IMG/VR virus record: IMGVR_UViG_2923682817_000001 | Span: 1 to 64,000 of that record | Reading direction: 5' to 3' (one strand) | Source of the DNA: a virus | Lineage: Duplodnaviria > Caudoviricetes | Length of the DNA: 64,000 nucleotides | In this document: positions 1,594 to 33,715 of the stretch, piece by piece | Numbering within the stretch: the stretch's first letter is position 1 | How the letters are laid out: each line of letters begins with the position of its first letter | The notes under the pieces: generated by a model | Told to the model about the DNA's origin: nothing | Seen by the model: only the letters and a program-made list of their open reading frames with translations | Database searches by the model: none | Translations under genes and position numbers: made by a program

Positions 1594-4500
1594 TGGTCTT
1601 TACTCCTCCGCGTGCGATCTGCTGATACAGCTCCTTGCGTTCCAGTTCCTTGATGAAGGCCGACGCGGCGCTCTTACCGGTCTCCGGGGAGGTGCCGGCG
1701 CCGAAGGTGAGCACGACGGATCCGGGGCCGAAGTTGAGCGTCACCCCGCCCGTGCCGGGCGCCCCGGTCGACGACGTGCCGCCGTTGCCGGTCACCGCGC
1801 CGCCGAGGTTCTGCTGGATCAGGGCGTCACGGATCGTCTGGGCCTGGGCGGACGGGATGATCATTTCGCCCTTGTGGACGACGGCTTCCTGGTCGTCGGG
1901 CACCTGCCAGGCGCCGGAGTCGTACCACCCCTTGGCCACGCTGTGCGCCCAGGCCTTGGTCGGGCTGCCATAGCGGTCCTTGATGTAGCCCATGCCCCAC
2001 TTGATCTGGGTGGCCGGGTTGACCCGCCAGTCCTCCCCCGCGCTGGACATCTTCCAGGCGGGCAGCGCTTGGGGGATGCCGTAGGCGTCGGAGCCGTCGT
2101 TGTCAGCCCACTCGCTCCAGCCGCTTTCCTTGGTCCAGAGCTTCTCCAGCGGCGACCACTCCTTGTCGCTCCAGCCCTGCGCCTTGAGCATCCGCTTGGC
2201 CAGGCCCTTGTTTCGGCCGGTGTTGGCGGCCGGGTGGCCGGCCGGGGCGTAGTTCAGCGTCAGGTCGCCGCCGAAGCCGAGCTTGTTGCCCGCCCGGGTC
2301 AGGGAGGGATCCCCGCGGCGCTTGGCGTGACGGTCGGGGTTGACGGGGGCGTCCTTCAACCCTCCCAGCCGCTTTTTGTCCTTGGAGCTCAGCGCCGTGG
2401 AGACCTCGGAGTCCTTACCGCTGGGCTCCTGGCGAGTGCCGCGCAGCTCCTGCGGCAGTTCCTCCTCTGAGGTGGCTGCGTCGCCGGCCGCGCCGCTGAC
2501 CACACCACCGCCACCACCCCCGCCGCCGCCGCCGGCCAGGATGCCCGCCAGTGCCGACAGTTCGCTGGTGGAGTAGGCCGCGGCGTTGGGCGAGCCGAGC
2601 CCCATCGAACCGCCGCCACCGCCTCCCCCGCCGCCGCTGTAGCCGGCGGTGCTCGCGGTGGAGCCGGAGGAGTCCGCGGAGTCCGCGGAGTCCGTGGCCG
2701 CGGTGGCGACGTCGCCTCCCCCGCCGTCTGGGCTGGTCTCCTTGGTCGCCTTACCCCGCTTTGATCCGGAGCCGACGATGCGCCGCGCGTCGTCCCAGTC
2801 TCCGCGGCGGAACTGCTGGATCTGGATGGTGTTGCCGTTCTTGCCCTGCGAGCTCGTGCCGACGGTTTTGCCGTTGCCGATGTACATCTCGGTGTGCTCG
2901 GCCGCACCGGAGGCCGCCCCGGGCTTGCCGCGCGCCCACAGCAGGATGTCGCCGGGCTGCAGATCGTCCCAGTCGACGTGCTCACCCTGGGACCACATGT
3001 TGGTCGTGATCGGACCGACCTTGTAGCCCAGCTGCGAATACACCCGGGACACGAAACTGGAGCAGTCGAAATAACCGTCCTCGTCGCGGTACCGCATCGA
3101 GTACTTGTACTTGCGGCTGCCGGTGGCGTAGCTGGTGGCCAGGCTGGCCAGCCGCTTTTGCTGGGCCTCAATGTCGCTGCTGCCGGCCCCGCCACCCGGG
3201 GGAAGGCCACCGGACAGCACCGGAGCCGAGGCGCCGCCGGCCGGAGCGTCACCCTGGGAGAGCATGTACGACTGGCCGTTGATCATCATCTGCTGGGGCA
3301 TGTCGCCGGCGCCGGAGAACCCGGCGGCCATGCCCTTGAAGAAGTTCTTGATGTCGCCGATGATCGGCGCGTTGACGAAGGCGGCGACCGCCTCGGAGAA
3401 GGTGTGCATGGCGCTGGAGGAGGTATCCAGGGCGTCCATGTACTCTTCGTTGCCGGTCAGCTCCGAGGCGCGCGACTTGGCGTTGGCCCGCTCCTGGACC
3501 TTGGAGAACTGGTCCTTGATGCCGTACTTGGTGTCATTGATCTTGCGGAATTTGTCGTACTTGTCGCCGGCCAGGTTCGACTTGGACTGGACCTCGTCGA
3601 AGTCCTTGGTGTCCTTACCCTGGGCCGTGGCGCGGTTGTAGCCGGCCAGGTAGGGCAGCATGGCCTGCGCGCCTTCCTCACCGACGATCATCCGCAGGTT
3701 TTCCAGGCCGACGCCGCCTTCGCGGAAGTCGTCAGAGAAAACGTTCTCGGGAACGGCTTTGCGGCCCTGGTAGATGCGCTTGAGGAAGGCGGAGTAGAAC
3801 GCCGCATTGCCCTTGTAGGAGCCGTCGGAGGCCACCGGGTCTGGCAGGCCCATCAGCATCATGTTGAGCCTGTTGGAGGGCTTCATCATGTTGCCGACCA
3901 GCTGCGTGCTCTTGGACCAGCCCATGCCGACGTTGGCGTAGCCCAGGCCCGCGGCGGCGTTCTTCAGCGCGTCGTAGCGCTTTTGCCCGGAGTTGCTGTT
4001 CATCCCGCCGGAGTAGGCCGCGGCCACGCTCCAGCCGCCCATCGCATCCTGGGCGTTCTGTACCGACGCCTGGGCGTTGATCCCGATGCCGCCGTAGGTT
4101 GCGGGGGTGGTGCGCGAGGCGCCGAGCACGCTGCTTAGGACGCCGTTTCGGTCGACCTGGCTTTGGGTGTGGGAGCCGTAGGTGTTGAGCAGGTTGTTGT
4201 GGGCGCCGATGCCGACCTGAGCGTCCATCTGATCGACACCGCGCTGTGCGGCGATGCCGGCGCCCCAGCGCAGCGTGTTGAGGCCGGCTTCCATCCGGTT
4301 GTACTGGGTGCCCCAGGACTTGGGGGTGGTGCCGGACACCGCGGCCATGGTGCGCGCGAAGTAGCCCGGTCCGTGGCCGCCAGCCGGCGCCGCGCCGGCG
4401 GCCATGCCGCCGAAGGTTGATCCGCCGCCGTTGGTGCCGTAGGAGTGTCCGCCGGTCGGGGTGCGAGCTCCGCCCCGCGGGGTCTGGCCGCCGGCCTGCT

Positions 4501-12857: not shown

Positions 12858-13922
12858 TTAGTTCGTCTCTAGGGTCACGATTGCATTGTCGGTGATTACC
12901 CCGAGTCCCCACACGCTATACCAAGCGATCGAGTGTTCCCTTCCATGATCAAGAACGCCCCCATCCCTCAGTTCGACGGGCAGAGAAATGGCGTGACCGA
13001 ACGCGTTGTCTCCGATCATCTGCGCCTGGTAAACGCTCTTACCGGTTGCGACATCGGCCGCGGTGTCGGCCGTGTTCCAGTTCACCGGACCTTCTCCGGT
13101 CTTGAAAAGCTGGCGAACCTGAGTGGTCTCGATGAAAACCACGTCGTCGATTCGGCCAATTTCACCGAGAGCGAAGTTGCCGGGGCTCGCGTATTTCGTC
13201 ATCTCGATCCAGGAAGGGTCGTCGCGAAGCTTCCTGGACTGGCTCGGAGAAACGAAACAGACGTAGGTCTCCCCAAGTCGGGGGATGTTCTTCTGCGCGA
13301 GTGTCTGGACGCCATCCTTCACCAGGGCAGTGGTGAAGTAGTGGTCGGTCAGAGTGGACCGTCCGGCGGCCGGAGAGCCCAGGTCATAGGGGCTGAGGGA
13401 GGTGATGGCACCGGCAGGCTGCTTGAGCTTGTCGTAGCCATAGAGCACGCTACTGCCCTTTAGCAATGTGTTTCTCGCTGAGCGATCCAAGTAGAGGGCC
13501 ATGTTACGCCCGAGGAGCCTGGAAGCCGACGAGAGAATATCGTCATAGGAGGCGTTCAGAAGCATCTCGGAAACGGCGACAGCCATGCCATGTTCCGCAA
13601 CCGTGATTGAGAACTGGCTCGCAGAGAGAGCGTAGGTCTCCATGCGGACACCTTCCACGAGTTGCTTCGCATCGGGGAGGTTGTTATAGCGCATGAAATT
13701 GATGGTCAGGCCCGGCTGGACGCCCAGTTCCGTGCGCTTTACCGCGAATTGTTCATACCGGAGTATCGGCATGGCGCTGAACAAAATTTCTTTCGACCAG
13801 ATGGTGGCAATGGCCGCGCCGAGGCCAGAGCCGGCGCCATACATGGAGCCCGGAACATTGGTCGCGAGGTTCGGCGTACCGGTGATCGCGGAGGTGGTGG
13901 GAAAACCGCCGTTGAATGCCAT
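12858..13922 (-). CDS. Major capsid protein (N4-gp56-like)
   Basis: IWSKEIL, PG.TINF.RY, GEIGRIDDVVFIET, D.GR...IAWY motifs; 354 aa after the scaffold gene. Confidence 0.9.
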   Translation of the reverse strand: MAFNGGFPTTSAITGTPNLATNVPGSMYGAGSGLGAAIATIWSKEILFSAMPILRYEQFAVKRTELGVQPGLTINFMRYNNLPDAKQLVEGVRMETYALSASQFSITVAEHGMAVAVSEMLLNASYDDILSSASRLLGRNMALYLDRSARNTLLKGSSVLYGYDKLKQPAGAITSLSPYDLGSPAAGRSTLTDHYFTTALVKDGVQTLAQKNIPRLGETYVCFVSPSQSRKLRDDPSWIEMTKYASPGNFALGEIGRIDDVVFIETTQVRQLFKTGEGPVNWNTADTAADVATGKSVYQAQMIGDNAFGHAISLPVELRDGGVLDHGREHSIAWYSVWGLGVITDNAIVTLETN

Positions 13923-14782: not shown

Positions 14783-16512
14783 CTAATTATCTGCGTCCGG
14801 ATTTCGGCGCTGCGGCAATTTCGTGCCGTAGGCCTGTGTCACCAATTCGGTAATGAGTTGGTTTTCCTGTGCTCCGACCAGTCCCGTGAGCTGAGTGCCC
14901 ATCGGTCCTGGATTCGGCGCCGGACCCGCAGGATTCGAGTTAGTGCTGCCAGTTGCGGGGGTTGAGTTGTCAAGGGGAGTTCCGTCAGGATTCATCCCCG
15001 TCACTTCGACGATAGCAGCGCCGATCTGAGCATTGATAATGTCGAGTGCGCCTTGTTCCTTGGCGTCCAGGACCATCTCAGCAAATATCTCGGCTGCCTT
15101 TTCGTCTGGGAACTCACATCCCAAGTCCTTGAGCGCGCCACGCTTGGACTCCAAACCGAGCGCCATCTTCGCCTGAATCTCGTTCAGCTTGATGAGCTTG
15201 TCGGTCGGCATAGCGTCCGGCCAATCGCACTCGGTGCGATAAACCAGCGGGTCAGCGGGGTCAATGATGACCGGCTGACCGTCCTGAATGATGCCGTCGG
15301 TGTCGGGATCGTAGAGCATTGTCTCGGGCTCGAAGATGAACAACGTACGCAGGGCGAGCTCGTTTATTTTCTTCAGGCCCCGCGTGAAATTGACCAGCTT
15401 CGCGTCGCGATTGTTGGTGGCCGGTAGCCACTGGATGGACAAAGCGACGCCCGACGTATTGGAAATCGGCTGGACCTGGCCCAGCGACGTTTCCGGGACT
15501 CCCGACATCTCGTGCATGGACGTCTTGAGGAGCTGCATGAACTGCAGCGGCCCCGACAGGTCCACGCCGTTTTCAAGGTTGAAGACGGACGCGTCCTTCG
15601 GGAGGCCGCCCCATACCTTGCGTGGCCCCTTTTCGAGATTGCTCGCTTTGGCACCGAGCAAGATCGTTACGGGGGCCGCGTGGTACGAGATGATGTCTGC
15701 GATCTCCGTTGCCGTCTCGTTGTACTGCCTGTTCAGGGCGATGAGGTCCTGACAGTCAGACAGCCCCCACGGGGATCCGGAGACCGAGATGTTCGGCGTG
15801 TGGACGATCGGGATTACGCCAAGAGGATTCGGCCGGCGGTCGATCAGATCGTCATTTACATACTCTTCGATCCAGTCATCCGTCACGATTTCCGTGTACT
15901 GGAATACCTGCCTGGTCCCCTCTAGGGAAGTCGACCAGAAGCGGTATTTGATCTTGACCCTCAGTAAACGTTCCCGATCATGTGGGTGCCATTCTGGGAA
16001 CACGAATGCCGAGTTCAACGGAAGGATCCGAACGCGGCCAGGGTGGAGATTACCGGCCGGATCGGTGTACGCCGGATCGTAGGCGACCTTCACAAATGAG
16101 TCGCCGGACACGCCGCCCTGCTGCGCCATTTCGCGCAGCACCTGGGGCTTGTCGTTGTCCGTCTCCCAGATGCGATTAAGTAGCGCCGGCACGATGTGCG
16201 AGTACTGCTTCGCCGACTGGAAGGTCACCCCGCGGGAGAACGCGAAGTTGATCTGGAAGTCGGTCAGCCGCCGGACGTAGTTGAACGTCATGAGCGGCTC
16301 GCCAGGCTCACGCCTGTATGCGTGGTGATGGCCAAGGTAGAAAGCCCAGTTCATCGCGTAGCGATTCAGCCGAGGGCTCAACCATGAACTTCAAATTCGT
16401 CGAGTTACGGATGTAACTCGTCCGCCAACTCCACAAGACCGAGGGGCGAGATACTGATAGCGAGATCAGAACCGGCCGCGCGGGTGGAGGGCGGATAGAA
16501 AGCGATGCTCAT
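14783..16512 (-). CDS. Portal protein; 5' end interrupted by two short inserts
   Basis: Portal-like body (FNYVR, GDSFVKV, NPLGVIPIVH, WGLSD, SGVAL) in ORF 14783-16381. AGGAGG plus ATG 16512 opens MSIAFYPPS...GLVELADE, which hits TAA at 16407 and TGA at 16380. Confidence 0.85.
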
Positions 16513-16633
16513 CCTGGCATCACCTCCTTAAGACCGCGTCAACGCGGACGCACCCGACATTTCGCTTTTCAGCGTATGGCGGGTGCGTCCGAGAATTGTA
16601 ATGTGGAGTTATGAGGGGCGGCCCTGGAAAGGG

Positions 16634-17050
16634 CTACTGGTTAATGTTGGCGGGATTCTGGCGCAGGTAATGGCCGCCGGAGCGGGTCACCTGCTCGAAC
16701 TCGATTACGCCGTGGTCGCCGTAGGAGCCGTGGGAGAACTCGCTGAGGAAGGTGGGGGCCTCCACCCAGCTGGCAGAACCGGCGTGGGCGCGCTCGGCCA
16801 GGGTCTCGTGCGGCCACTTGGTGTCGACCTTGGCGTTCTGGTTGGGGCGGCCGGGATTCGTGCGGTAGCCCTGCATGATGCCCTCGGTGAAGCCGTCGGG
16901 CACGTCGCTGTCAGTCCCCAAGCCCTCCTCGAACCTCAGGGGGCCGCGGCGGACATCGTTCTGTCCGTACTTGGCCTCCCAGCGCGGAGTCATGCGCTCG
17001 GGGAAGTGGGGGGCCGGGGCGAAGGGGGAAGTCTGGGTGGGGTCAGCCAT
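16634..17050 (-). CDS. Hypothetical protein between terminase and portal
   Basis: Start MADPTQTSPF at ATG 17050; RRGPLRFEEGLGTD motif; good codon usage. Confidence 0.7.
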   Translation of the reverse strand: MADPTQTSPFAPAPHFPERMTPRWEAKYGQNDVRRGPLRFEEGLGTDSDVPDGFTEGIMQGYRTNPGRPNQNAKVDTKWPHETLAERAHAGSASWVEAPTFLSEFSHGSYGDHGVIEFEQVTRSGGHYLRQNPANINQ

Positions 17051-17115: not shown

Positions 17116-18717
17116 TCAGCGCCGGCCGTGGAAGGGAGACGAGCTCTGCTCGGCCTCGGGCATCTGGTGGTCGATCGTGAGAATGCAGGCCATCGCGAGA
17201 CTGTCGCAGTAGTCGTCGTGGGCGCCGGCCTCGTTGGGGGCCTCGGCCAGCATGTAGGGGCCGGTGTAGACCAGCTGCAGGTCGCTCATCTCCTGAATGA
17301 ACCGGCGGTAGGTGCGTAGCTTCTTGGTCTTGGCATGCGCCGGCCAGGACACCTTGCCGCGCTCCATGAGGGCCTGGAGGTGCTTCCAACGCGTGGACTG
17401 GTCGGGCCGCTGGCTACCGAGCTCTACGACCTCTACGTGCGGCATAAGGATCTTCAGTCGCTCGGCCACCGCGTCACCGACGCCGCCACTGTCCACGCCG
17501 ACGCTCAGCACGTGATAGGCGGACAAAAATTCTACGATGCGGTGGTATTGGGCTTCCCATGTAGTGGTTCCACCGAGGTCAAGCCAGTTGAGGACGCGGT
17601 GCTCGAAGAAGCCGAATTCGTCAGGGTTGTCCCAGTCGACCCAGACCACGGTCACGATGGTCGAGTCTTGCTTGCGCGCAGGGTCGATGCCGACCACGAC
17701 TGGTGACTTGTACCAGGCCTTGACGGTCTGCATGGATCGGTCCCCGAGCTCGTCCAGCCGCTCGGAGGTCGTGAACATGCCCGCCTCCAGCAGCCAAACC
17801 AGGCGGTAGCTCAGTTTGAACTCGTCGGAGTCCACGCCCATCTTGAGCTTCTGCTTCTCGCAGTGGATGTGGTACTTGGGGTTCTCTTTGGCCGCGGCCC
17901 GGTAATCGGCCTCGAAGTGGTCTTGGCGGGCGCCGCGCTTGGTCTGGTCTCGCTTGTTCTGCTGGATCGTGCGGTAGAAGACGTTCTTGGTATAGGTGGG
18001 GGTACCGGTATAGATGTGAGTAGCGTTGGTGCTCGCACCCATCGGCGTGATCGACTTGTCCACCATGCGGTCGTCGGCGCCCTGGCACTCGTCGATCAAG
18101 ATCAAATGGTAGGTTCTGCCCTCGATCGTCGCCCGCGGGTGGCAGGTTTGCCTGCGCACCAGGGAGCCACTGTTCAAGGTCAGCGTGCGGCCCTTGGCCT
18201 TGACCCCGTCCATGATGTCCGGGTCGTTCATGAGCTCGATCGCACGCTCAGACGTCAGCCGCGAGACGATGCGTCCGAAAAGGGTGTCCGCTTGTTCGTC
18301 GACCGGGGCGAACGCCCCCACCCAGACGCCCTCGGCGAAGCCGCCGAGCAGGTTGGGGTAGACCCGTGCCAGCACCGGAAACATGATCATGATTGCGGCA
18401 ATGGTGTTGGCGACCGTTTCCGACTTGCCGGACTGCCGGCTGAATAGTGCGGTCAGGGTCGCGCCATCATTAATGATGACAGACTCTATGATTCGGGCTG
18501 AAAACGGGCGTTGGTATCGATACAGGGGGTGGCCGCTCAGCTCGTCGACCACGACCAGCATCTTGTCGACGATCTCGTCCACCGTGGCCTGTGTGAACTC
18601 GTCCAGGACGACCTCGGTAGCCGCTCGCGCCGCGCGCTCTTCCTCGGTTTCCTCGTCGAAAAGGTCTTCTAGCTCATCATTTGTGAGCTCTGCGTATTCG
18701 GTCGCCTGAATCGTCAT
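17116..18717 (-). CDS. terL: Terminase large subunit
   Basis: Walker A SRQSGKS, Walker B LILIDE, nuclease motifs VGIDPA and HDDYCDS. Confidence 0.93.
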   Translation of the reverse strand: MTIQATEYAELTNDELEDLFDEETEEERAARAATEVVLDEFTQATVDEIVDKMLVVVDELSGHPLYRYQRPFSARIIESVIINDGATLTALFSRQSGKSETVANTIAAIMIMFPVLARVYPNLLGGFAEGVWVGAFAPVDEQADTLFGRIVSRLTSERAIELMNDPDIMDGVKAKGRTLTLNSGSLVRRQTCHPRATIEGRTYHLILIDECQGADDRMVDKSITPMGASTNATHIYTGTPTYTKNVFYRTIQQNKRDQTKRGARQDHFEADYRAAAKENPKYHIHCEKQKLKMGVDSDEFKLSYRLVWLLEAGMFTTSERLDELGDRSMQTVKAWYKSPVVVGIDPARKQDSTIVTVVWVDWDNPDEFGFFEHRVLNWLDLGGTTTWEAQYHRIVEFLSAYHVLSVGVDSGGVGDAVAERLKILMPHVEVVELGSQRPDQSTRWKHLQALMERGKVSWPAHAKTKKLRTYRRFIQEMSDLQLVYTGPYMLAEAPNEAGAHDDYCDSLAMACILTIDHQMPEAEQSSSPFHGRR

Positions 18718-20819: not shown

Positions 20820-21108
20820 GCCTCTGATGGCACATTCAGCACGGCAGATGGCGCAAAAAAGGCATGATTGGTGCGCCGAAGGCCGCTCGGATCGCCTAAA
20901 ACCGCCCTGCTTCGCACAGTCCAAAACAGGCTCTGAACTGCGACAATAGGACTGTGCAGGGAAGCTGTTAGACCACCGAAAGATTCTGATTGACAACTTC
21001 CAGTTGTGCGCCTAGTATCCTAAAAGCGCAGGTAAAGCGCCTGTGCGTAGGATTCTAGGGCACAAAAAAGCCACAAGGCCGTGCCCATCTGGAAGGGTTA
21101 GGGGCACA
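20820..21108. other. Candidate attP region
   Basis: Lower-GC gap next to the integrase with arm-like repeats (GGCGCAAAAAAGGCA about 20850, GGGCACAAAAAAGCCAC 21058-21074, GGGCACAA about 21102) and a GCACAGTCC/GGACTGTGC inverted pair. Confidence 0.5.
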
Positions 21109-22395
21109 ATGGCGCGCAAGAAGCTGATCCGGGGCATGGGCAGCCTGAAGAAGGTCGACTCCTGCAAGCACGGCGAGGACGCGCGCTGCAAGTGCAAGTG
21201 GCTCGGCCGGTGGTACGACGCGGCCGGCGAGCCCACCAAGCTCACCTTCGACGACTACGACGCAGGCTTCGAGCACCTGTTCCAGGAGTACACCAAAAAG
21301 CGCCAGGGCGTCGGCAGGATGTCCAAGGCCAAGGGCAAGGCCCCCTTGTTAGAGGTCTACGCCATCGAGTGGCTAGCCAGCATGCGCGACCTGGAGCCCG
21401 CCAGCAGGCGCAACTACAAGTCCATCCTGGAAACCCACGCCTTCCCCAGGCTCGGCAAGGTCCCCGTCAACCGCATCAACAAAGATCAGATAGCTGACCT
21501 GATCGACTACCTCTACTCCGAGGACCCGGAAACGGGGAAGGACCCGGTCTACGAGGGCACTGTCAAGAATCTCATCATGTACGTCCTGCGCCCGATTTTC
21601 CGCCAGGCTCAGGCTGACGTATGGCGCAGTGACAACCCCTGCGACGGACACCGGTTGCGCGACGTTCCCGACGCCGAGCGCTACGTCCCCACCCCGGCCG
21701 AGATCCACGACATCGCCCACACCATCAAGCCGATGTGGCGCCTGGCGATTTACCTCATGGCCGGGTGCGGCCTGCGCGAGGGCGAATTCCTGGGCGCCAG
21801 CACCGACATTCGTAAGAAAGACAACCGGCTCTGGATCTACCGGCAGTGGCACCATGAGGGCCGCTGGGCGCCGCTGAAGTACTGCAAGGCGAAAGAGGGG
21901 CGCTGGGTGCCTCTGGATCCGATCGTGGCCGCGGAGTTGGAACGGCACATCGCCGACTACGCGATCCCCGAGGGCGGGCTGCTGTTCCCCTCCCTCAAGA
22001 AGCCCGGCCAGGCGGTCAACAACTCGGTATTCAACCGAGCGCTCAAGGAAGCCTGCATCCGGCTCGGCCTCGACGACAAAGACATCACGGCCCACAACTT
22101 TAGGCATGCCTTCGCCAGCCACGTCATCGACGCGGGCGTCCCCCTGCCCGACGTCTCGCGCATGCTCGGCCACAAGTCCTACGAGACCACCTTCAAGACC
22201 TACTACAAGATGGTCGACCCGTCCTGGGAGCGCATCCAGCGCAACGTCAACACCTACCTGTCCACCGGCATCCCGGTCGACGCCACGCTCGGCGGCGTTG
22301 ACGCCTTCGCCGAAGACAAGCAGGCCGAGGTCACCGATCTGCTGGCCAAGCTCAAGGCCCTGGGCGTCACCGTGACGCTGGAGCAGGCCGCCTGA
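21109..22395 (+). CDS. int: Tyrosine integrase
   Basis: GCGLREGE (R), HNFRH (HxxR), LGH and TTFKTY (Y); N-terminal SAM-like domain. Confidence 0.93.
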   Translation: MARKKLIRGMGSLKKVDSCKHGEDARCKCKWLGRWYDAAGEPTKLTFDDYDAGFEHLFQEYTKKRQGVGRMSKAKGKAPLLEVYAIEWLASMRDLEPASRRNYKSILETHAFPRLGKVPVNRINKDQIADLIDYLYSEDPETGKDPVYEGTVKNLIMYVLRPIFRQAQADVWRSDNPCDGHRLRDVPDAERYVPTPAEIHDIAHTIKPMWRLAIYLMAGCGLREGEFLGASTDIRKKDNRLWIYRQWHHEGRWAPLKYCKAKEGRWVPLDPIVAAELERHIADYAIPEGGLLFPSLKKPGQAVNNSVFNRALKEACIRLGLDDKDITAHNFRHAFASHVIDAGVPLPDVSRMLGHKSYETTFKTYYKMVDPSWERIQRNVNTYLSTGIPVDATLGGVDAFAEDKQAEVTDLLAKLKALGVTVTLEQAA

Positions 22396-23189: not shown

Positions 23190-23964
23190 TGGCGCGGATC
23201 GCCTGCTCGGCCTCGGCACGCATGCGGAGGGTCTTGTCGTAGTCCTTGAAGCGCGCCTTGCTGATGACTCGCCGATCATGCGACCTCAGCACGATGCCCT
23301 CGCTGCGGCCGGGCGTGCCGGTCGACACCCGGGTTGCCGCGTAGGGTGCCATGAACTCGCGCATGCCGGCGATGCTGCGCGGAAGCTCGGCGGCGTCCAG
23401 GGTGAACAGCCTCGGAGTCAGGAGCAGGTATGCCATCTTTGCCTGAGCCTGCAGCGCGGCCTCGCCGGCGAAGTCCTGGCCGCCGCGGTCACGCCACATG
23501 GCGATCTCGTTGTGGTCCATCGAGATCCTGTCCGGGTCCACCGTGGCGGCGTCGAACAACCGGAAGGCCGCGGTGCCGTCCCCGTACTGCTTCCATTCCG
23601 GCAGCTGCTTGCCGCCGTACACCTCCAGGTACAGCACGAGGATTTCGTCCCAGGCGCCCTCGACCTTGTAGCCGACCTCGCGCAGGGCGTCCACGATCCC
23701 CTGCTGAGGGTTGTGGACTCGGTCGCCTGAGCAGGTCAGCAGCTCACCGCGGGAGCCGATCAGGAAACGGCCGTCGGGAAGAACGATCAGCCGAGCATTG
23801 GTGCCGTCGACCTTCTCCGTCCCGATCACCGTGCCCTCGTATTCGGTGGGCTCTTCCAGCAGGATGCCCTTGGCCCGGGGGTTCAGCGCGTGGTGCGTGG
23901 GGATGCTCGGGTATTTCGTCAGGGAGTTGATCTTCTCCAGGTCCTGCTGCCGCAGACGGTACAT
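23182..23964 (-). CDS. RNA ligase (Rnl2-like ATP-dependent nucleotidyltransferase)
   Basis: Motif I EKVDGTN, IGSR, FRLFD, motif IV EGIVLR and terminal K; GGAGG before ATG 23964. Confidence 0.85.
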   Translation of the reverse strand: MYRLRQQDLEKINSLTKYPSIPTHHALNPRAKGILLEEPTEYEGTVIGTEKVDGTNARLIVLPDGRFLIGSRGELLTCSGDRVHNPQQGIVDALREVGYKVEGAWDEILVLYLEVYGGKQLPEWKQYGDGTAAFRLFDAATVDPDRISMDHNEIAMWRDRGGQDFAGEAALQAQAKMAYLLLTPRLFTLDAAELPRSIAGMREFMAPYAATRVSTGTPGRSEGIVLRSHDRRVISKARFKDYDKTLRMRAEAEQAIRANV

Positions 23965-33157: not shown

Positions 33158-33715
33158 GTGACGCATCACACCGGATCCCACTACACGCCCGGCTACGGCT
33201 ACCCGCCTGCACCGGTTCCGTCCCGCCCGGGATTCAGCGGCTTGACCGTCGTCCTCGTCGCCTCTGGAACGCTCCTGTCCGGCTGCTTCGGCGGATTCAT
33301 CATCGGCAGCGTGAGCGGATCCACCGCGGCGGCTCCCTCCGAGCGCACGACCCTCCCGCGGGCCAGCAAGGCCGCCGTGCCGACCCACAAGTCCACCCAG
33401 CCCCAGGCGGCCGAAGCCGAGGGCGAGCCGCGCAAGCCTCGCCCTGGCGACTTCCAGCTCTCGGTTAAGACCCTGAAGCAGTCCTGTTTCAGCTCGGCCG
33501 GCTGCCTCATCACCTTTCGAGTGGTGCCGTCCTACCGCGGGCCGGCCCTGGGTGACCAGCAGTACACCGTCACCTACAAGGTCACCGGCGGTAAGGAACC
33601 GAAGATCGGATCGTTCACGATGGTCGGCGCCCAGCTCTCCTACGACCGCCAGGATTTCCTCTCCACCAACTCCTCCGCGGACCGGCTCGCTGCCGAGGTG
33701 ACCGAGGTTCTCTGA
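33158..33715 (+). CDS. Membrane-anchored/exported protein
   Basis: Hydrophobic helix, S/T/P linker, QSCFSSAGC domain; preceded by a leader-A-like sequence. Confidence 0.75.
   Translation: MTHHTGSHYTPGYGYPPAPVPSRPGFSGLTVVLVASGTLLSGCFGGFIIGSVSGSTAAAPSERTTLPRASKAAVPTHKSTQPQAAEAEGEPRKPRPGDFQLSVKTLKQSCFSSAGCLITFRVVPSYRGPALGDQQYTVTYKVTGGKEPKIGSFTMVGAQLSYDRQDFLSTNSSADRLAAEVTEVL

What the first reader, a model, noticed from the sequence alone, without database searches (positions are those of the whole stretch)
16370..16530. Portal gene broken by two hairpin micro-inserts: candidate programmed ribosomal bypassing
Seen (minus strand): AGGAGG, ATG 16512, then ...GCG GAC GAG [TTA CAT CCG TAA CTC GAC] GAA TTT GAA GTT CAT GGT [TGAGC] CCT CGG CTG AAT CGC. 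Insert 1 (16399-16416, 18 nt) opens with the rare TTA codon, holds an in-frame stop and forms the stem CGAGTTAC-ATCC-GTAACTCG. Insert 2 (16376-16380, 5 nt) opens with TGA, shifts frame and can pair with the downstream CTCGGC. Removing both gives ...VELADEEFEVHGPRLNRY, which matches my unverified recollection of this portal family. Known: T4 gene 60 and mitochondrial byps pair a take-off codon with a stop or avoided codon and a hairpin; UUA-linked bypassing has been proposed for Streptomyces phage genes. Inference: two hops (GAG to GAC/GAA; GGT to AGC) or one 35-nt hop (CCG to CCT) gate virion assembly on host UUA-tRNA status. Splicing by the phage RNA ligase is a less likely alternative. Caveat: another TTA lies in the portal body near 15965.
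Basis: partly seen in the sequence, partly recalled or inferred. Interest (0 to 1): 0.88.

Follow-up and report, generated by a model that had tools for sequence, protein, structure and literature searches.

The report
Ribosome-hop gaps in phage portal gene
The essential portal gene of this 105-kb phage-like element is broken by an 18-base and a 5-base insert that ribosomes most likely hop over, because related phages carry some two dozen differently built inserts of the same design.

Summary
On the minus strand, a 32-codon start (ATG 16512), an 18-nt gap (16416-16399), six codons (EFEVHG), a 5-nt gap (16380-16376) and the 531-codon portal body together encode the continuous N-terminus that uninterrupted homologues have. 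Contigs of three sequencing runs carry the same DNA.

In 193 related loci I found 26 further distinct gaps at 13 sites, and they follow one rule. A take-off codon is followed in frame by a slow or stop codon (TTA, AGA, TAG or TGA). The gap then usually ends in a synonymous copy of the take-off codon. Gap 1 is TTA-led and folds into a T4-gene-60-like hairpin. Gap 2 is TGA-led and belongs to a recurring minimal class that lands on AGC.

The best reading is two programmed ribosomal hops (about 0.65). Gating by the host's single UUA tRNA is inferred only, and an in-frame TTA in the portal body argues against a simple switch. Both landings here are near-cognate, so a defective gene is not excluded.

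In print, this has been proposed only for a few Streptomyces phage terminase genes. This scan has already reported the same design on other DNA.

The parts
16523..16528 (-). Shine-Dalgarno AGGAGG, 10 nt before the portal start ATG
   Evidence: There is no comparable SD before TTG 16381 or ATG 16354 (read by eye).
16417..16512 (-). Portal coding segment 1: 32 codons (MSIAF...VELADE) ending in the take-off codon GAG (16419-16417)
   Evidence: Against four relatives, 16-18 synonymous versus 2-4 non-synonymous codon differences.
16399..16416 (-). Gap 1, 18 nt: TTA CAT CCG TAA CTC GAC. TTA sits in the A site after take-off. The last triplet GAC is a near-cognate landing, and the next codon GAA is the alternative landing.
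   Evidence: Gaps at the same site occur in L131/L132 (22 nt), L010/L011/L017, L028, L030 and L210.
16401..16420 (-). Take-off hairpin: 8-bp stem CGAGTTAC / GTAACTCG with loop ATCC. The 5' arm holds GAG+TTA. The 3' arm holds the TAA, which is simply the complement of TTA.
   Evidence: -12.0 kcal/mol for 42 nt, reached by 2.3% of shuffles. L028's 25-nt gap has the same architecture.
16381..16398 (-). Portal coding segment 2: six codons EFEVHG, ending in the take-off codon GGT (16383-16381)
   Evidence: Identical to the family consensus. Differences from L005 are 3 synonymous and 0 non-synonymous.
16376..16380 (-). Gap 2, 5 nt: TGAGC. The stop TGA sits in the A site after GGT. The landing triplet AGC pairs with tRNA-Gly(GCC) at positions 2 and 3.
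   Evidence: Same minimal class as CGA|TTAGC|CTG (L030, L034), CGA|TAGC|TTG (L052) and AAT|TAGC|TGG (L191).
16363..16383 (-). Weaker second hairpin that starts at the take-off GGT and encloses TGA and the landing
   Evidence: -9.4 kcal/mol, reached by 10% of shuffles. Not significant on its own.
14783..16375 (-). Portal coding segment 3: body (PRLNRY... to the stop), SPP1 Gp6-like portal
   Evidence: (PF05133, E 4.8e-22).
15965..15967 (-). In-frame TTA (conserved Leu, CGT TTA CTG), at the position where relatives L028, L030 and L034 carry gaps
17116..18717 (-). Large terminase, uninterrupted (context)
12858..13922 (-). Major capsid protein, uninterrupted (context)

Best explanation
The portal protein of this temperate-type, 105.5-kb phage-like element is made by two successive ribosomal hops (translational bypassing).

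Proposed sequence of events:
1. Translation starts at ATG 16512, behind a strong SD.
2. After 32 codons, peptidyl-tRNA-Glu sits on GAG and the A site holds UUA. UUA is the host's rarest codon and is read by a single tRNA gene.
3. The stalled ribosome lets the mRNA slide. The 8-bp hairpin that contains GAG+UUA folds and compacts the 18-nt gap.
4. The tRNA re-pairs on GAC. Alternatively it re-pairs on the following GAA, which would lose one Glu.
5. Decoding resumes through EFEVHG.
6. At GGU the A site holds the stop UGA. A second short hop of 5 nt puts the tRNA-Gly on AGC and CCU in the A site, and the portal body is read.

Ribosomes that fail to hop release only a peptide of about 35-40 residues.

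Shown here: the anatomy, the reality of the DNA, the continuity of homologues, and the family-wide rule. Inferred: that hopping occurs here, its efficiency, the exact landing triplets, and any regulatory use.
For: 1. Homologues are continuous across both gaps. The whole gene aligns to P0005 with only these two skips.

2. The family follows a rule. In 193 related loci plus the window, one search lists 35 distinct skips.
- Of the 25 that break the frame or hold a stop, 24 open with TTA (13), TAG (6), TGA (3) or AGA (2). The simulated null mean is 1.0, with a maximum of 6 in 5000.
- 17 end in a synonymous copy of the take-off codon. The null mean is 1.05, with a maximum of 7.
- The one exception (L031) is a 1-base loss in a C run.
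- Internal control: of the 10 skips that neither break the frame nor hold a stop, the 8 ordinary indels show neither feature (0 of 8). The other 2 are the TTA-led in-frame gaps CGA|TTACGY|CTG, which follow the rule.
- L210 and L211 add two more gaps.

3. Among 19 non-identical take-off/landing pairs, 13 differ only at the wobble position (P = 0.002). A tRNA-level constraint predicts this. A DNA-level repeat does not.

4. Host awareness: all TTA-led gaps lie in loci with GC of 0.61 or more. The two low-GC loci (0.41, 0.45) use stops.

5. Same-site relatives of gap 1:
- L131/L132: GAA|22 nt|GAG, with an identical landing GAA.
- L210: TTACCTCGAT then GAA. The window's gap equals this type plus 8 internal bases that create the hairpin.

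6. L028's 25-nt gap has the same hairpin layout.

7. Gap 2's class (slow codon + GC, landing AGC) recurs in 3 other distinct gaps in 4 loci.

8. The portal is the only convincingly frame-broken conserved gene in the contig when compared with two relatives' 110-kb contigs. In the 13 interrupted loci, the capsid (13 of 13), scaffold (13 of 13) and terminase (12 of 13) ORFs are present.

9. TTA occurs at 0.10 per 1000 codons in the host, which has one tRNA-Leu(UAA). The phage contig carries no tRNA-Leu.

10. Precedent: bypassing of UUA-led gaps in the phiHau3 terminase has partial experimental support (PMC10732093; sections 3.4, 3.5 and the closing section read).
Against: - There is no RNA, ribosome or protein evidence, and the element is not shown to make virions.
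- Both landings here are only near-cognate (GAG to GAC, GGT to AGC). By contrast, 20 of the 28 gaps in the series (both of the window's counted) land on a synonymous codon, so this copy could be inefficient or dead.
- Two sequential hops multiply the inefficiencies.
- The portal body needs the UUA tRNA at codon 139. That conflicts with simple licensing by tRNA scarcity.
- Interrupted portals are frequent in elements carried in bacterial assemblies (12 of 34) and absent from the 5 plaque-isolated relatives. This would also fit non-productive, trapped elements.
- The 91-nt region as a whole does not fold unusually well (z -1.42).
- Kin are not independent: several gaps are shared by related loci, and some loci are the same contig in two collections.
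Confidence: 0.65

Rival explanations
1. The portal gene is defective. The element descends from bypass-competent ancestors, but its landing codons have decayed (GAC, AGC). It then persists only as a non-productive prophage or plasmid-like replicon.
For: - Both landings are imperfect, against 20 of 28 synonymous landings in the series.
- Interrupted portals are enriched in genome-borne elements (12 of 34) compared with 0 of 5 cultured phages.
- The contig carries a tyrosine integrase, so persistence without particles is conceivable.
Against: - The same near-cognate arrangements recur in distant relatives. GAY followed by GAA occurs in L210. AGC landings occur in L030/L034, L052 and L191.
- No other conserved gene of the contig is broken.
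- The six codons between the gaps keep the consensus residues, with only synonymous changes against L005.
Confidence: 0.17
2. Gap 2 is not hopped over. Instead it is resolved by a +2 shift with out-of-frame decoding of AGC as serine, giving ...EFEVHG-S-PRLNRY. In the TAGC gaps of relatives the shift would be +1. Gap 1 is still bypassed.
For: - All four minimal gaps put AGC first in the new frame.
- AGC is a common codon in the host, at 15.5 per 1000.
Against: - For three of the four, AGC matches the take-off codon at positions 2 and 3 (GGT; CGA twice), as P-site re-pairing predicts.
- No homologue carries an extra residue there.
- L097's TAGCTC gap cannot be solved this way.
Confidence: 0.1
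3. The matched triplets are short direct repeats left by a DNA-level insertion. The gaps would then be removed at the DNA level by slippage between the repeats in a subpopulation (a phase-variation-like switch), not by ribosomes.
For: Deletion between take-off and landing repeats would restore the gene exactly. Some repeats extend to 4 nt, for example CGAG...CGAG in L010.
Against: - This does not explain why the first gap codon is, in frame, TTA/AGA/stop in 24 of 25 cases, nor why stops replace TTA in low-GC loci.
- It does not explain the wobble-only differences between repeats.
- The window's own gaps lack exact repeats.
- No joint or deletion variant appears in the three runs' contigs, although contigs drop rare variants.
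Confidence: 0.04
4. A single 35-nt hop. UUA, CAU and CCG are decoded, the ribosome stalls at UAA, and peptidyl-tRNA-Pro moves from CCG (16410-16408) to CCU (16375-16373). The product reads ...ADE-LHP-RLNRY.
For: It fits the family rule formally: a stop follows the take-off codon and the landing is synonymous. It could rescue ribosomes that do decode UUA.
Against: - It deletes EFEVHG, which is near-invariant in the 120 listed homologues and kept intact here.
- CCC lies one base before CCU and would capture the tRNA in the wrong frame.
- No relative has a gap longer than 25 nt.
Confidence: 0.03
5. The gaps are cut out of the mRNA (micro-splicing using the phage RNA-ligase-family protein), or the portal simply starts downstream at TTG 16381 or ATG 16354 and the 35-aa ORF is separate.
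For: - A PF09414 RNA_ligase-family hit lies at 23245-23832.
- Gene callers did start the protein downstream (P0004, 502 aa).
Against: - Gaps of 4-25 nt share no boundary motif or structure, and their defining features are frame- and codon-aware.
- There is no SD before the downstream starts but a strong one before ATG 16512.
- The N-terminal block is the most conserved part of the family and is under purifying selection.
- No Rfam family matches there.
Confidence: 0.03

Closest known systems
UUA-led coding gaps in the large terminase of Streptomyces phage phiHau3 (g6/g7/g8) and of the StrepC.1 and S. catenulae prophages. Smith et al. 2013 was not held, and is known only through PMC10732093. 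Antonov et al. 2023 (PMC10732093) was read in sections 3.4, 3.5 and the closing section, plus passages.
   Same: An essential late gene of an actinophage is split by short non-coding blocks (7-10 nt there). UUA directly follows the take-off codon. The host has a very rare UUA and one tRNA for it. A stem-loop is proposed as stimulator. In the E. coli test a stop codon could replace UUA.
   Different: - A different gene (portal) in an unrelated, roughly 105-115-kb phage lineage.
- Here one gap is 18 nt with a strong take-off hairpin, and the other is stop-led.
- The landings are near-cognate.
- The family offers 28 distinct gaps at 13 sites, against 4 sites in 3 of 100 terminase genes.
Phage T4 gene 60 bypass (50-nt gap). 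Recalled knowledge; mentioned in PMC10732093.
   Same: The take-off codon lies in the 5' arm of a hairpin that folds on take-off. A non-decodable or slow codon follows it. Peptidyl-tRNA re-pairs downstream. The target is an essential phage gene.
   Different: - Gaps are 18 and 5 nt rather than 50.
- The first gap uses UUA rather than UAG.
- The landing is not identical to the take-off codon.
- The role of a nascent peptide is unknown.
- No adjacent homing-endonuclease gene was found here.
Low-level hopping at hungry or stop codons in E. coli (Weiss et al. 1987; Gallant and Lindsley 1998). Recalled; alluded to in PMC10732093's introduction.
   Same: Short hops of a few bases from a codon to a matching codon when the A site is slow. 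This fits the 4-9-nt gaps of the family and gap 2.
   Different: Those are laboratory constructs or errors. Here the arrangement sits in natural essential genes and recurs under selection.
Mitochondrial 'byps' of Magnusiomyces capitatus (recalled)
   Same: Short hairpin-forming inserts inside coding sequence, bypassed between matched codons.
   Different: Byps are 27-55 nt, number dozens per genome, and spread like mobile elements. Here only the portal gene of the contig is affected, and most gaps are too short to fold.

Membership tests
UUA-mediated translational bypassing (phiHau3-terminase type) | Short non-coding block inside an essential ORF, with flanking segments that together encode a contiguous homologue | tested here: met
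UUA-mediated translational bypassing (phiHau3-terminase type) | UUA codon in frame immediately 3' of the take-off codon, at the 5' edge of the gap | tested here: met
   Gap 1: GAG then TTA at 16416-16414. Gap 2 does not meet this; it opens with TGA.
UUA-mediated translational bypassing (phiHau3-terminase type) | Host in which UUA is exceptionally rare and read by a single tRNA | tested here: met
   0.10 per 1000 codons, the rarest sense codon. One tRNA-Leu(UAA) in the host and none on the phage contig. Developmental control of that tRNA in this host was not tested.
UUA-mediated translational bypassing (phiHau3-terminase type) | Landing codon cognate to the peptidyl-tRNA | tested here: inconclusive
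   GAG to GAC matches at the first two positions. GAG to GAA is cognate for tRNA-Glu(UUC) but drops one Glu. GGT to AGC matches at positions 2-3.
UUA-mediated translational bypassing (phiHau3-terminase type) | Full-length trans-frame protein actually produced | not testable with these tools
   No RNA holder was listed and no proteomics is available.
T4 gene 60-type bypass | Stem-loop containing the take-off codon and the following undecoded codon | tested here: met
   8-bp stem with 4-nt loop at 16420-16401.
T4 gene 60-type bypass | Identical take-off and landing codons, a 50-nt gap, and a nascent-peptide signal | tested here: not met
   The landing is not identical and the gaps are 18 and 5 nt. 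A nascent-peptide effect is not testable. So this works like gene 60 but is not a member.
Programmed -1/+1 ribosomal frameshifting | Slippery heptamer or a shift-prone P-site codon whose tRNA re-pairs one base away | tested here: not met
   There is no X XXY YYZ motif, and no re-pairing is possible at GGT_TGA or GAG_TTA (read by eye). Gap 1 is in frame but holds a stop.
SPP1 Gp6-like portal protein (PF05133) | Profile match over the curated cut-off | tested here: met
   79 bits against a cut-off of 25.5.
Mobile bypass cassette with homing endonuclease (as T4 mobA / gene 60; lead from earlier scan notes) | Endonuclease gene next to the gapped gene | tested here: not met
   The neighbouring ORFs have no Pfam or PHROG hit. 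The ORF associated with interrupted loci (8 of 13 against 1 of 22) is a clade-specific protein without a hit.

The most novel reading that the evidence does not exclude
The gaps are a tRNA-sensing developmental switch. When charged UUA-tRNA is scarce (young hyphae), ribosomes hop and the portal is made. When it is plentiful, UUA is decoded, portal synthesis aborts after about 35 residues, and the element's integrase, which carries its own in-frame TTA (21349), is translated instead. One host tRNA would then set particle production against lysogeny.

In addition, the near-invariant N-terminal peptide of the portal would act in the exit tunnel as a bypass enhancer. That would explain why 11 of 13 gap sites cluster at residues 28-55.
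Probability: 0.15. Interest if true: 0.9.

Novelty: new variant of a known kind. Interest (0 to 1): 0.78.

Why it matters
Translational bypassing is one of the rarest ways of reading a gene. It has one well-studied case (T4 gene 60) and one partly tested proposal in three actinophage terminase genes.

A natural series of about 28 differently built gaps in one conserved protein gives direct, testable rules:
- which A-site codons trigger take-off (UUA and AGA in high-GC hosts, stops elsewhere);
- how strictly the landing must match;
- that gaps of 18 nt or more tend to carry a take-off hairpin.

It also shows that annotation pipelines mis-call these essential genes as truncated. The window's own protein is called at 502 aa, and 23 of the 120 listed homologue calls start inside or after the N-terminal block. 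This distorts judgements of prophage intactness.

If the link to the host's UUA tRNA holds, it would be a compact sensor of host physiology. That would interest both phage biology and synthetic biology.

Tried and rejected
- **Other frame transitions in the contig.** tblastn of all ORFs of two relatives' contigs against C4 gave four further two-frame candidates. Inspection showed antisense shadows or adjacent genes. For example, 62.4-63.7 kb holds two separate minus-strand genes.
- **Homing endonuclease next to the portal** (lead from earlier notes). Not found with Pfam or PHROGs.
- **Recent transfer of gap 1 together with its flanks.** Rejected. The window and L210 are 59% identical in the 93 nt before the gap, against 61-67% in the body.
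- **Internal SD as a general stimulator.** GGAG lies 12 nt before the window's TTA, but same-site relatives have TCGAG or TTGAG instead, so I do not claim it.
- **Closer relatives.**
  - 0 of 39 other genomes of the host's genus have a match.
  - 2 of 400 genomes of the family match, and both were already in hand.
  - The phage collection holds only relatives at about 58% protein identity.
- **Rfam.** Only two sub-threshold chance hits in 16000-17000.
- **RNA evidence.** No RNA holder was listed.
- **Gap-free DNA variants.** None appear in the contigs of three runs, but contigs drop rare variants.
- **Earlier-note look-ups.** Searches by other words and by sequence gave nothing.
- **Sources I could not see.** Smith et al. 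2013 was not held. The supplements of PMC10732093, which hold the phiHau3 gap sequences and structures, were not seen, so my comparison of landing codons with phiHau3 is incomplete.
- **Not verified on DNA.** The P0075 gap was deduced from its protein only.
- **Literature coverage.** Four searches found no paper describing gaps in a portal gene. The two candidate papers only cite the terminase work or list in-frame TTA codons.
Full report
**1. The observation**

- AGGAGG at 16528-16523 and ATG at 16512.
- 32 codons ending GCG GAC GAG.
- An 18-nt block, TTA CAT CCG TAA CTC GAC, at 16416-16399.
- Six codons, GAA TTT GAA GTT CAT GGT.
- A 5-nt block, TGAGC, at 16380-16376.
- CCT CGG CTG AAT CGC and the rest of a 532-codon ORF.

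The ORF finder lists the last part as starting at TTG 16381, in the -1 frame. The palindrome CGAGTTAC-ATCC-GTAACTCG is exact.

**2. What the element is**

- The window is the first 64 kb of a separate 105,521-bp contig with 65.5% GC. It belongs to a 10.49-Mb, five-contig high-GC actinomycete assembly whose chromosome contigs have 71-72% GC.
- The neighbourhood runs large terminase, a conserved 140-aa ORF, portal, scaffold-like ORF, major capsid.
- The contig also carries a tyrosine integrase at 21043-22395.
- Its nearest cultured relatives are the 112-116-kb Streptomyces phages BRock, GiJojo, pSt2308, Alone3 and LuckySocke, at about 58% portal identity.

**3. Homologues are continuous**

- The annotated portals of GiJojo and BRock (572 and 573 aa) read straight through the region. 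Their sequence equals the window's first segment, then EFE(V/M)HG, then PRLNRY....
- Most of the 120 best database homologues are 560-577 aa with the same near-invariant block ...ISPLGLVELADEEFEVHGPRLNRY....
- The first 32 codons differ from four relatives at 18-22 codons each. Of these, 16-18 are synonymous. The segment has therefore evolved as coding sequence.

**4. The same design recurs in relatives**

Twenty-three of the 120 gene calls start inside or after the N-terminal block. That prompted a look at the DNA.

I fetched loci from three collections:
- 34 loci from species-representative genomes;
- 80 viral contigs, of which 79 were usable;
- 80 metagenome contigs, of which 2 are cut at the contig edge;
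- 4 more loci with an interrupted protein as query.

Some contigs occur in two collections.

Loci carrying gaps:

| Collection | Loci with gaps |
|---|---|
| Species-representative genomes | 12 of 34 |
| Viral contigs | 5 of 79 |
| Metagenome contigs | 5 of 78 |
| Biased fourth set | 2 of 4 |
| Cultured phages | 0 of 5 |

The gaps follow one rule, verified on the DNA. A take-off codon X is followed in frame by TTA, AGA, TAG or TGA. After 0-19 further bases comes a synonymous copy of X, and then the normal next codon.

Examples:
- GAG|TTACCGAG|GAA
- CTT|TTACCTC|GCT
- CAC|TTACCAC|TGG
- TAC|TTAT|GCG
- CGA|AGACCCGC|TTG
- GAG|TAGCTCCGCTTGAG|TTT
- TTC|TGACGATTT|GAA
- GAA|TTACGCCTCATCACCTCCTGAA|GAG

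tabulates 35 distinct skips.
- Of the 25 that break the frame or hold a stop, 24 open with a slow or stop codon (null mean 1.0, maximum 6 in 5000 simulations).
- 17 end in a synonymous landing (null mean 1.05, maximum 7).
- The single exception, L031, is the loss of one C in a C run. That is what an ordinary error looks like.
- Eight ordinary in-frame indels in the variable C-terminus show neither feature.
- Two in-frame gaps, CGA|TTACGY|CTG, also follow the rule.

Counting all of these, plus L210 and L211, there are 28 distinct gaps at 13 sites.
- 20 have synonymous landings: 9 identical and 11 differing only at the wobble position.
- Of the 19 non-identical pairs, 13 differ only at the third position (P = 0.002).
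- All TTA-led gaps lie in loci with GC of 0.61 or more. The two loci with GC 0.41 and 0.45 use stops.

These features depend on the reading frame, on codon identity and on the host's tRNA supply. That points to the ribosome, not to DNA or RNA processing.

**5. The window's two gaps in that light**

*Gap 1.* It sits at the commonest site (ADE|E) and opens with TTA.
- The closest interrupted relatives, L131/L132 (76% identity), have a 22-nt TTA-led gap at the same place with an identical GAA landing.
- L210 has TTACCTCGAT followed by GAA. The window's 18 nt equal that type plus eight internal bases (ATCCGTAA) that create the 8-bp hairpin.
- In both, the triplet before GAA is an Asp codon. So the landing is either near-cognate GAY, which keeps both Glu residues, or the following cognate GAA, which loses one Glu.
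- The hairpin gives -12.0 kcal/mol over 42 nt, reached by 2.3% of shuffles. The contig holds 40 perfect 8-bp hairpins in 105.5 kb.
- The take-off codon and the TTA lie in its 5' arm, as in T4 gene 60. The in-frame TAA is simply the complement of TTA.
- L028's 25-nt gap at another site has the same layout (-16.8 kcal/mol, 3% of shuffles). Three other long gaps have no hairpin.

*Gap 2* (GGT|TGAGC|CCT). It opens with a stop and belongs to a minimal class.
- Other members are CGA|TTAGC|CTG (L030, L034), CGA|TAGC|TTG (L052) and AAT|TAGC|TGG (L191).
- In this class the landing triplet overlaps the slow codon, so its first base is forced to be A. The free bases GC then match positions 2-3 of the take-off codon in three of the four.
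- The alternative, out-of-frame decoding of AGC as Ser, cannot be excluded.

**6. The DNA is real and the element is otherwise intact**

- Contigs of three runs agree with the window over 16100-16700 without a difference at the gaps. The runs come from at most two samples and two studies, and may be the source of the assembly.
- Against the complete 110-112-kb contigs of two relatives, the portal is the only convincing frame-broken conserved gene.
- In the 13 interrupted loci, the capsid (13 of 13), scaffold (13 of 13) and terminase (12 of 13) ORFs are present.

**7. Host context**

- TTA is the host's rarest sense codon: 0.10 per 1000 in 1,066 long high-GC3 ORFs.
- The host has one tRNA-Leu(UAA) gene, two tRNA-Glu(CUC) and one tRNA-Glu(UUC).
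- The phage contig has no tRNA-Leu.

Two facts complicate a simple scarcity-licenses-portal story.
- The portal body contains an in-frame TTA at a conserved Leu (15967-15965). This is exactly the site where L028, L030 and L034 carry gaps.
- Gap 2 does not involve UUA at all.

In 65 distinct high-GC portal ORFs there are only five in-frame TTA codons, and three of them sit at gap sites. This hints that in-frame TTA codons and gaps are evolutionarily linked.

**8. Mechanism**

The best-supported explanation is two successive ribosomal hops, described under Best explanation.
- Shown: the anatomy, the continuity of homologues, the family rule with its controls, the reality of the DNA, and the host's codon and tRNA setting.
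- Inferred: that hopping happens in this element, its efficiency, the landing triplets, the hairpin's role, and any regulatory meaning.

The early position of the gaps may limit the cost and toxicity of abortive products, or it may reflect a nascent-peptide effect. Eleven of 13 sites lie at residues 28-55. The P value is post hoc.

The rivals are set out with their tests in Rival explanations:
- a decayed, defective copy;
- a serine-inserting shift at gap 2;
- excision at the DNA level;
- a single 35-nt hop;
- RNA splicing, or a downstream start.

**9. Comparison with what is known**

The closest published system is the UUA-led gaps in the phiHau3 large terminase and two prophage terminases. 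Only 3 of 100 terminase genes had them. They were proposed in 2013 and partly supported in 2023 (PMC10732093).
- Full-length product was seen in Streptomyces.
- A junction peptide was found by mass spectrometry in E. coli after UUA was changed to UAA.

The present case works like that system, and its hairpin works like T4 gene 60. It differs in gene, in phage lineage, in gap lengths, in the stop-led second gap and in the near-cognate landings.

Four full-text searches found no paper on gaps in portal genes (checked in 62, 63).

Earlier notes of this scan report the same design in portal genes of at least 26 other genomes. I reached the reading before looking them up, and I confirm it independently on my own loci. 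Their lead that the gaps travel with homing endonucleases is not borne out at this locus.

**10. Verdict**

This is a real and well-supported candidate for double translational bypassing in an essential phage gene. It is a new variant of a known but very rare kind. No expression data exist, and this copy's imperfect landings leave about one chance in six that it is defective.

Noticed in passing
window 21043-22395 (+), TTA at 21349-21351: The contig's tyrosine integrase (PF00589, 81 bits) carries an in-frame TTA (P L L E V). It would need the same rare tRNA whose absence is proposed to favour the portal hop.
   Followed up: partly
window 15965-15967 (-); L028, L030, L034 around locus positions 3400-3440: The portal's in-frame TTA (CGT TTA CTG) lies at the site where relatives have a 25-nt gap or the 5-nt TTAGC gap. 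In 65 high-GC portal ORFs, 3 of only 5 in-frame TTA codons lie at gap sites. This suggests in-frame TTA codons are precursors or relics of gaps.
   Followed up: partly
relatives: L008, L014, L023, L062, L210 and the window's gap 1: The string TTAC(CTC) recurs at three different sites (VEL|A, ADE|E, FY|L), and C is the commonest base after TTA in the gaps. This is a possible fourth-base context effect or a shared origin. Unexplained.
   Followed up: no
L031 (about 3390-3400 of the locus): A one-base loss in a C run breaks this relative's portal body. It looks like an assembly error or an ordinary mutation, and it served as a contrast to the designed gaps.
   Followed up: partly
window 16510-16520 (-): A three-codon mini-ORF, ATG CCA GGA TGA, starts 2 nt after the SD and overlaps the portal ATG (ATGA). 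A similar GATGCC...ATG arrangement is seen in relatives (L010, L210, L211).
   Followed up: no
window 23245-23832 (-): RNA_ligase family (PF09414) hit, 50.5 bits, on the phage contig. My follow-up Pfam call used wrong coordinates and was not repeated.
   Followed up: partly
window 33541-33631 (+): ARAGORN calls a 91-nt tRNA-Cys with anticodon ACA. It is the only tRNA call on the contig, and its length and anticodon are odd, so it may be a false positive.
   Followed up: no
database proteins P0004, P0012, P0044, P0056, P0064 and others: Public gene calls of gapped portals are truncated or carry wrong-frame leaders. The window's own portal is on record as 502 aa starting at MTFNY. Some short calls (P0022 = L006, P0094 = L009) are merely mis-called starts on uninterrupted genes.
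   Followed up: partly
L010, L011, L014, L017, L023, L028, L030, L034, L009: about 2000-2850 of each locus: A clade-specific ORF of about 235 aa directly upstream of the portal, with no Pfam or PHROG hit. It is present in 8 of 13 interrupted loci and 1 of 22 uninterrupted loci. Shared ancestry most likely explains the link; there is no evidence of a functional link.
   Followed up: partly
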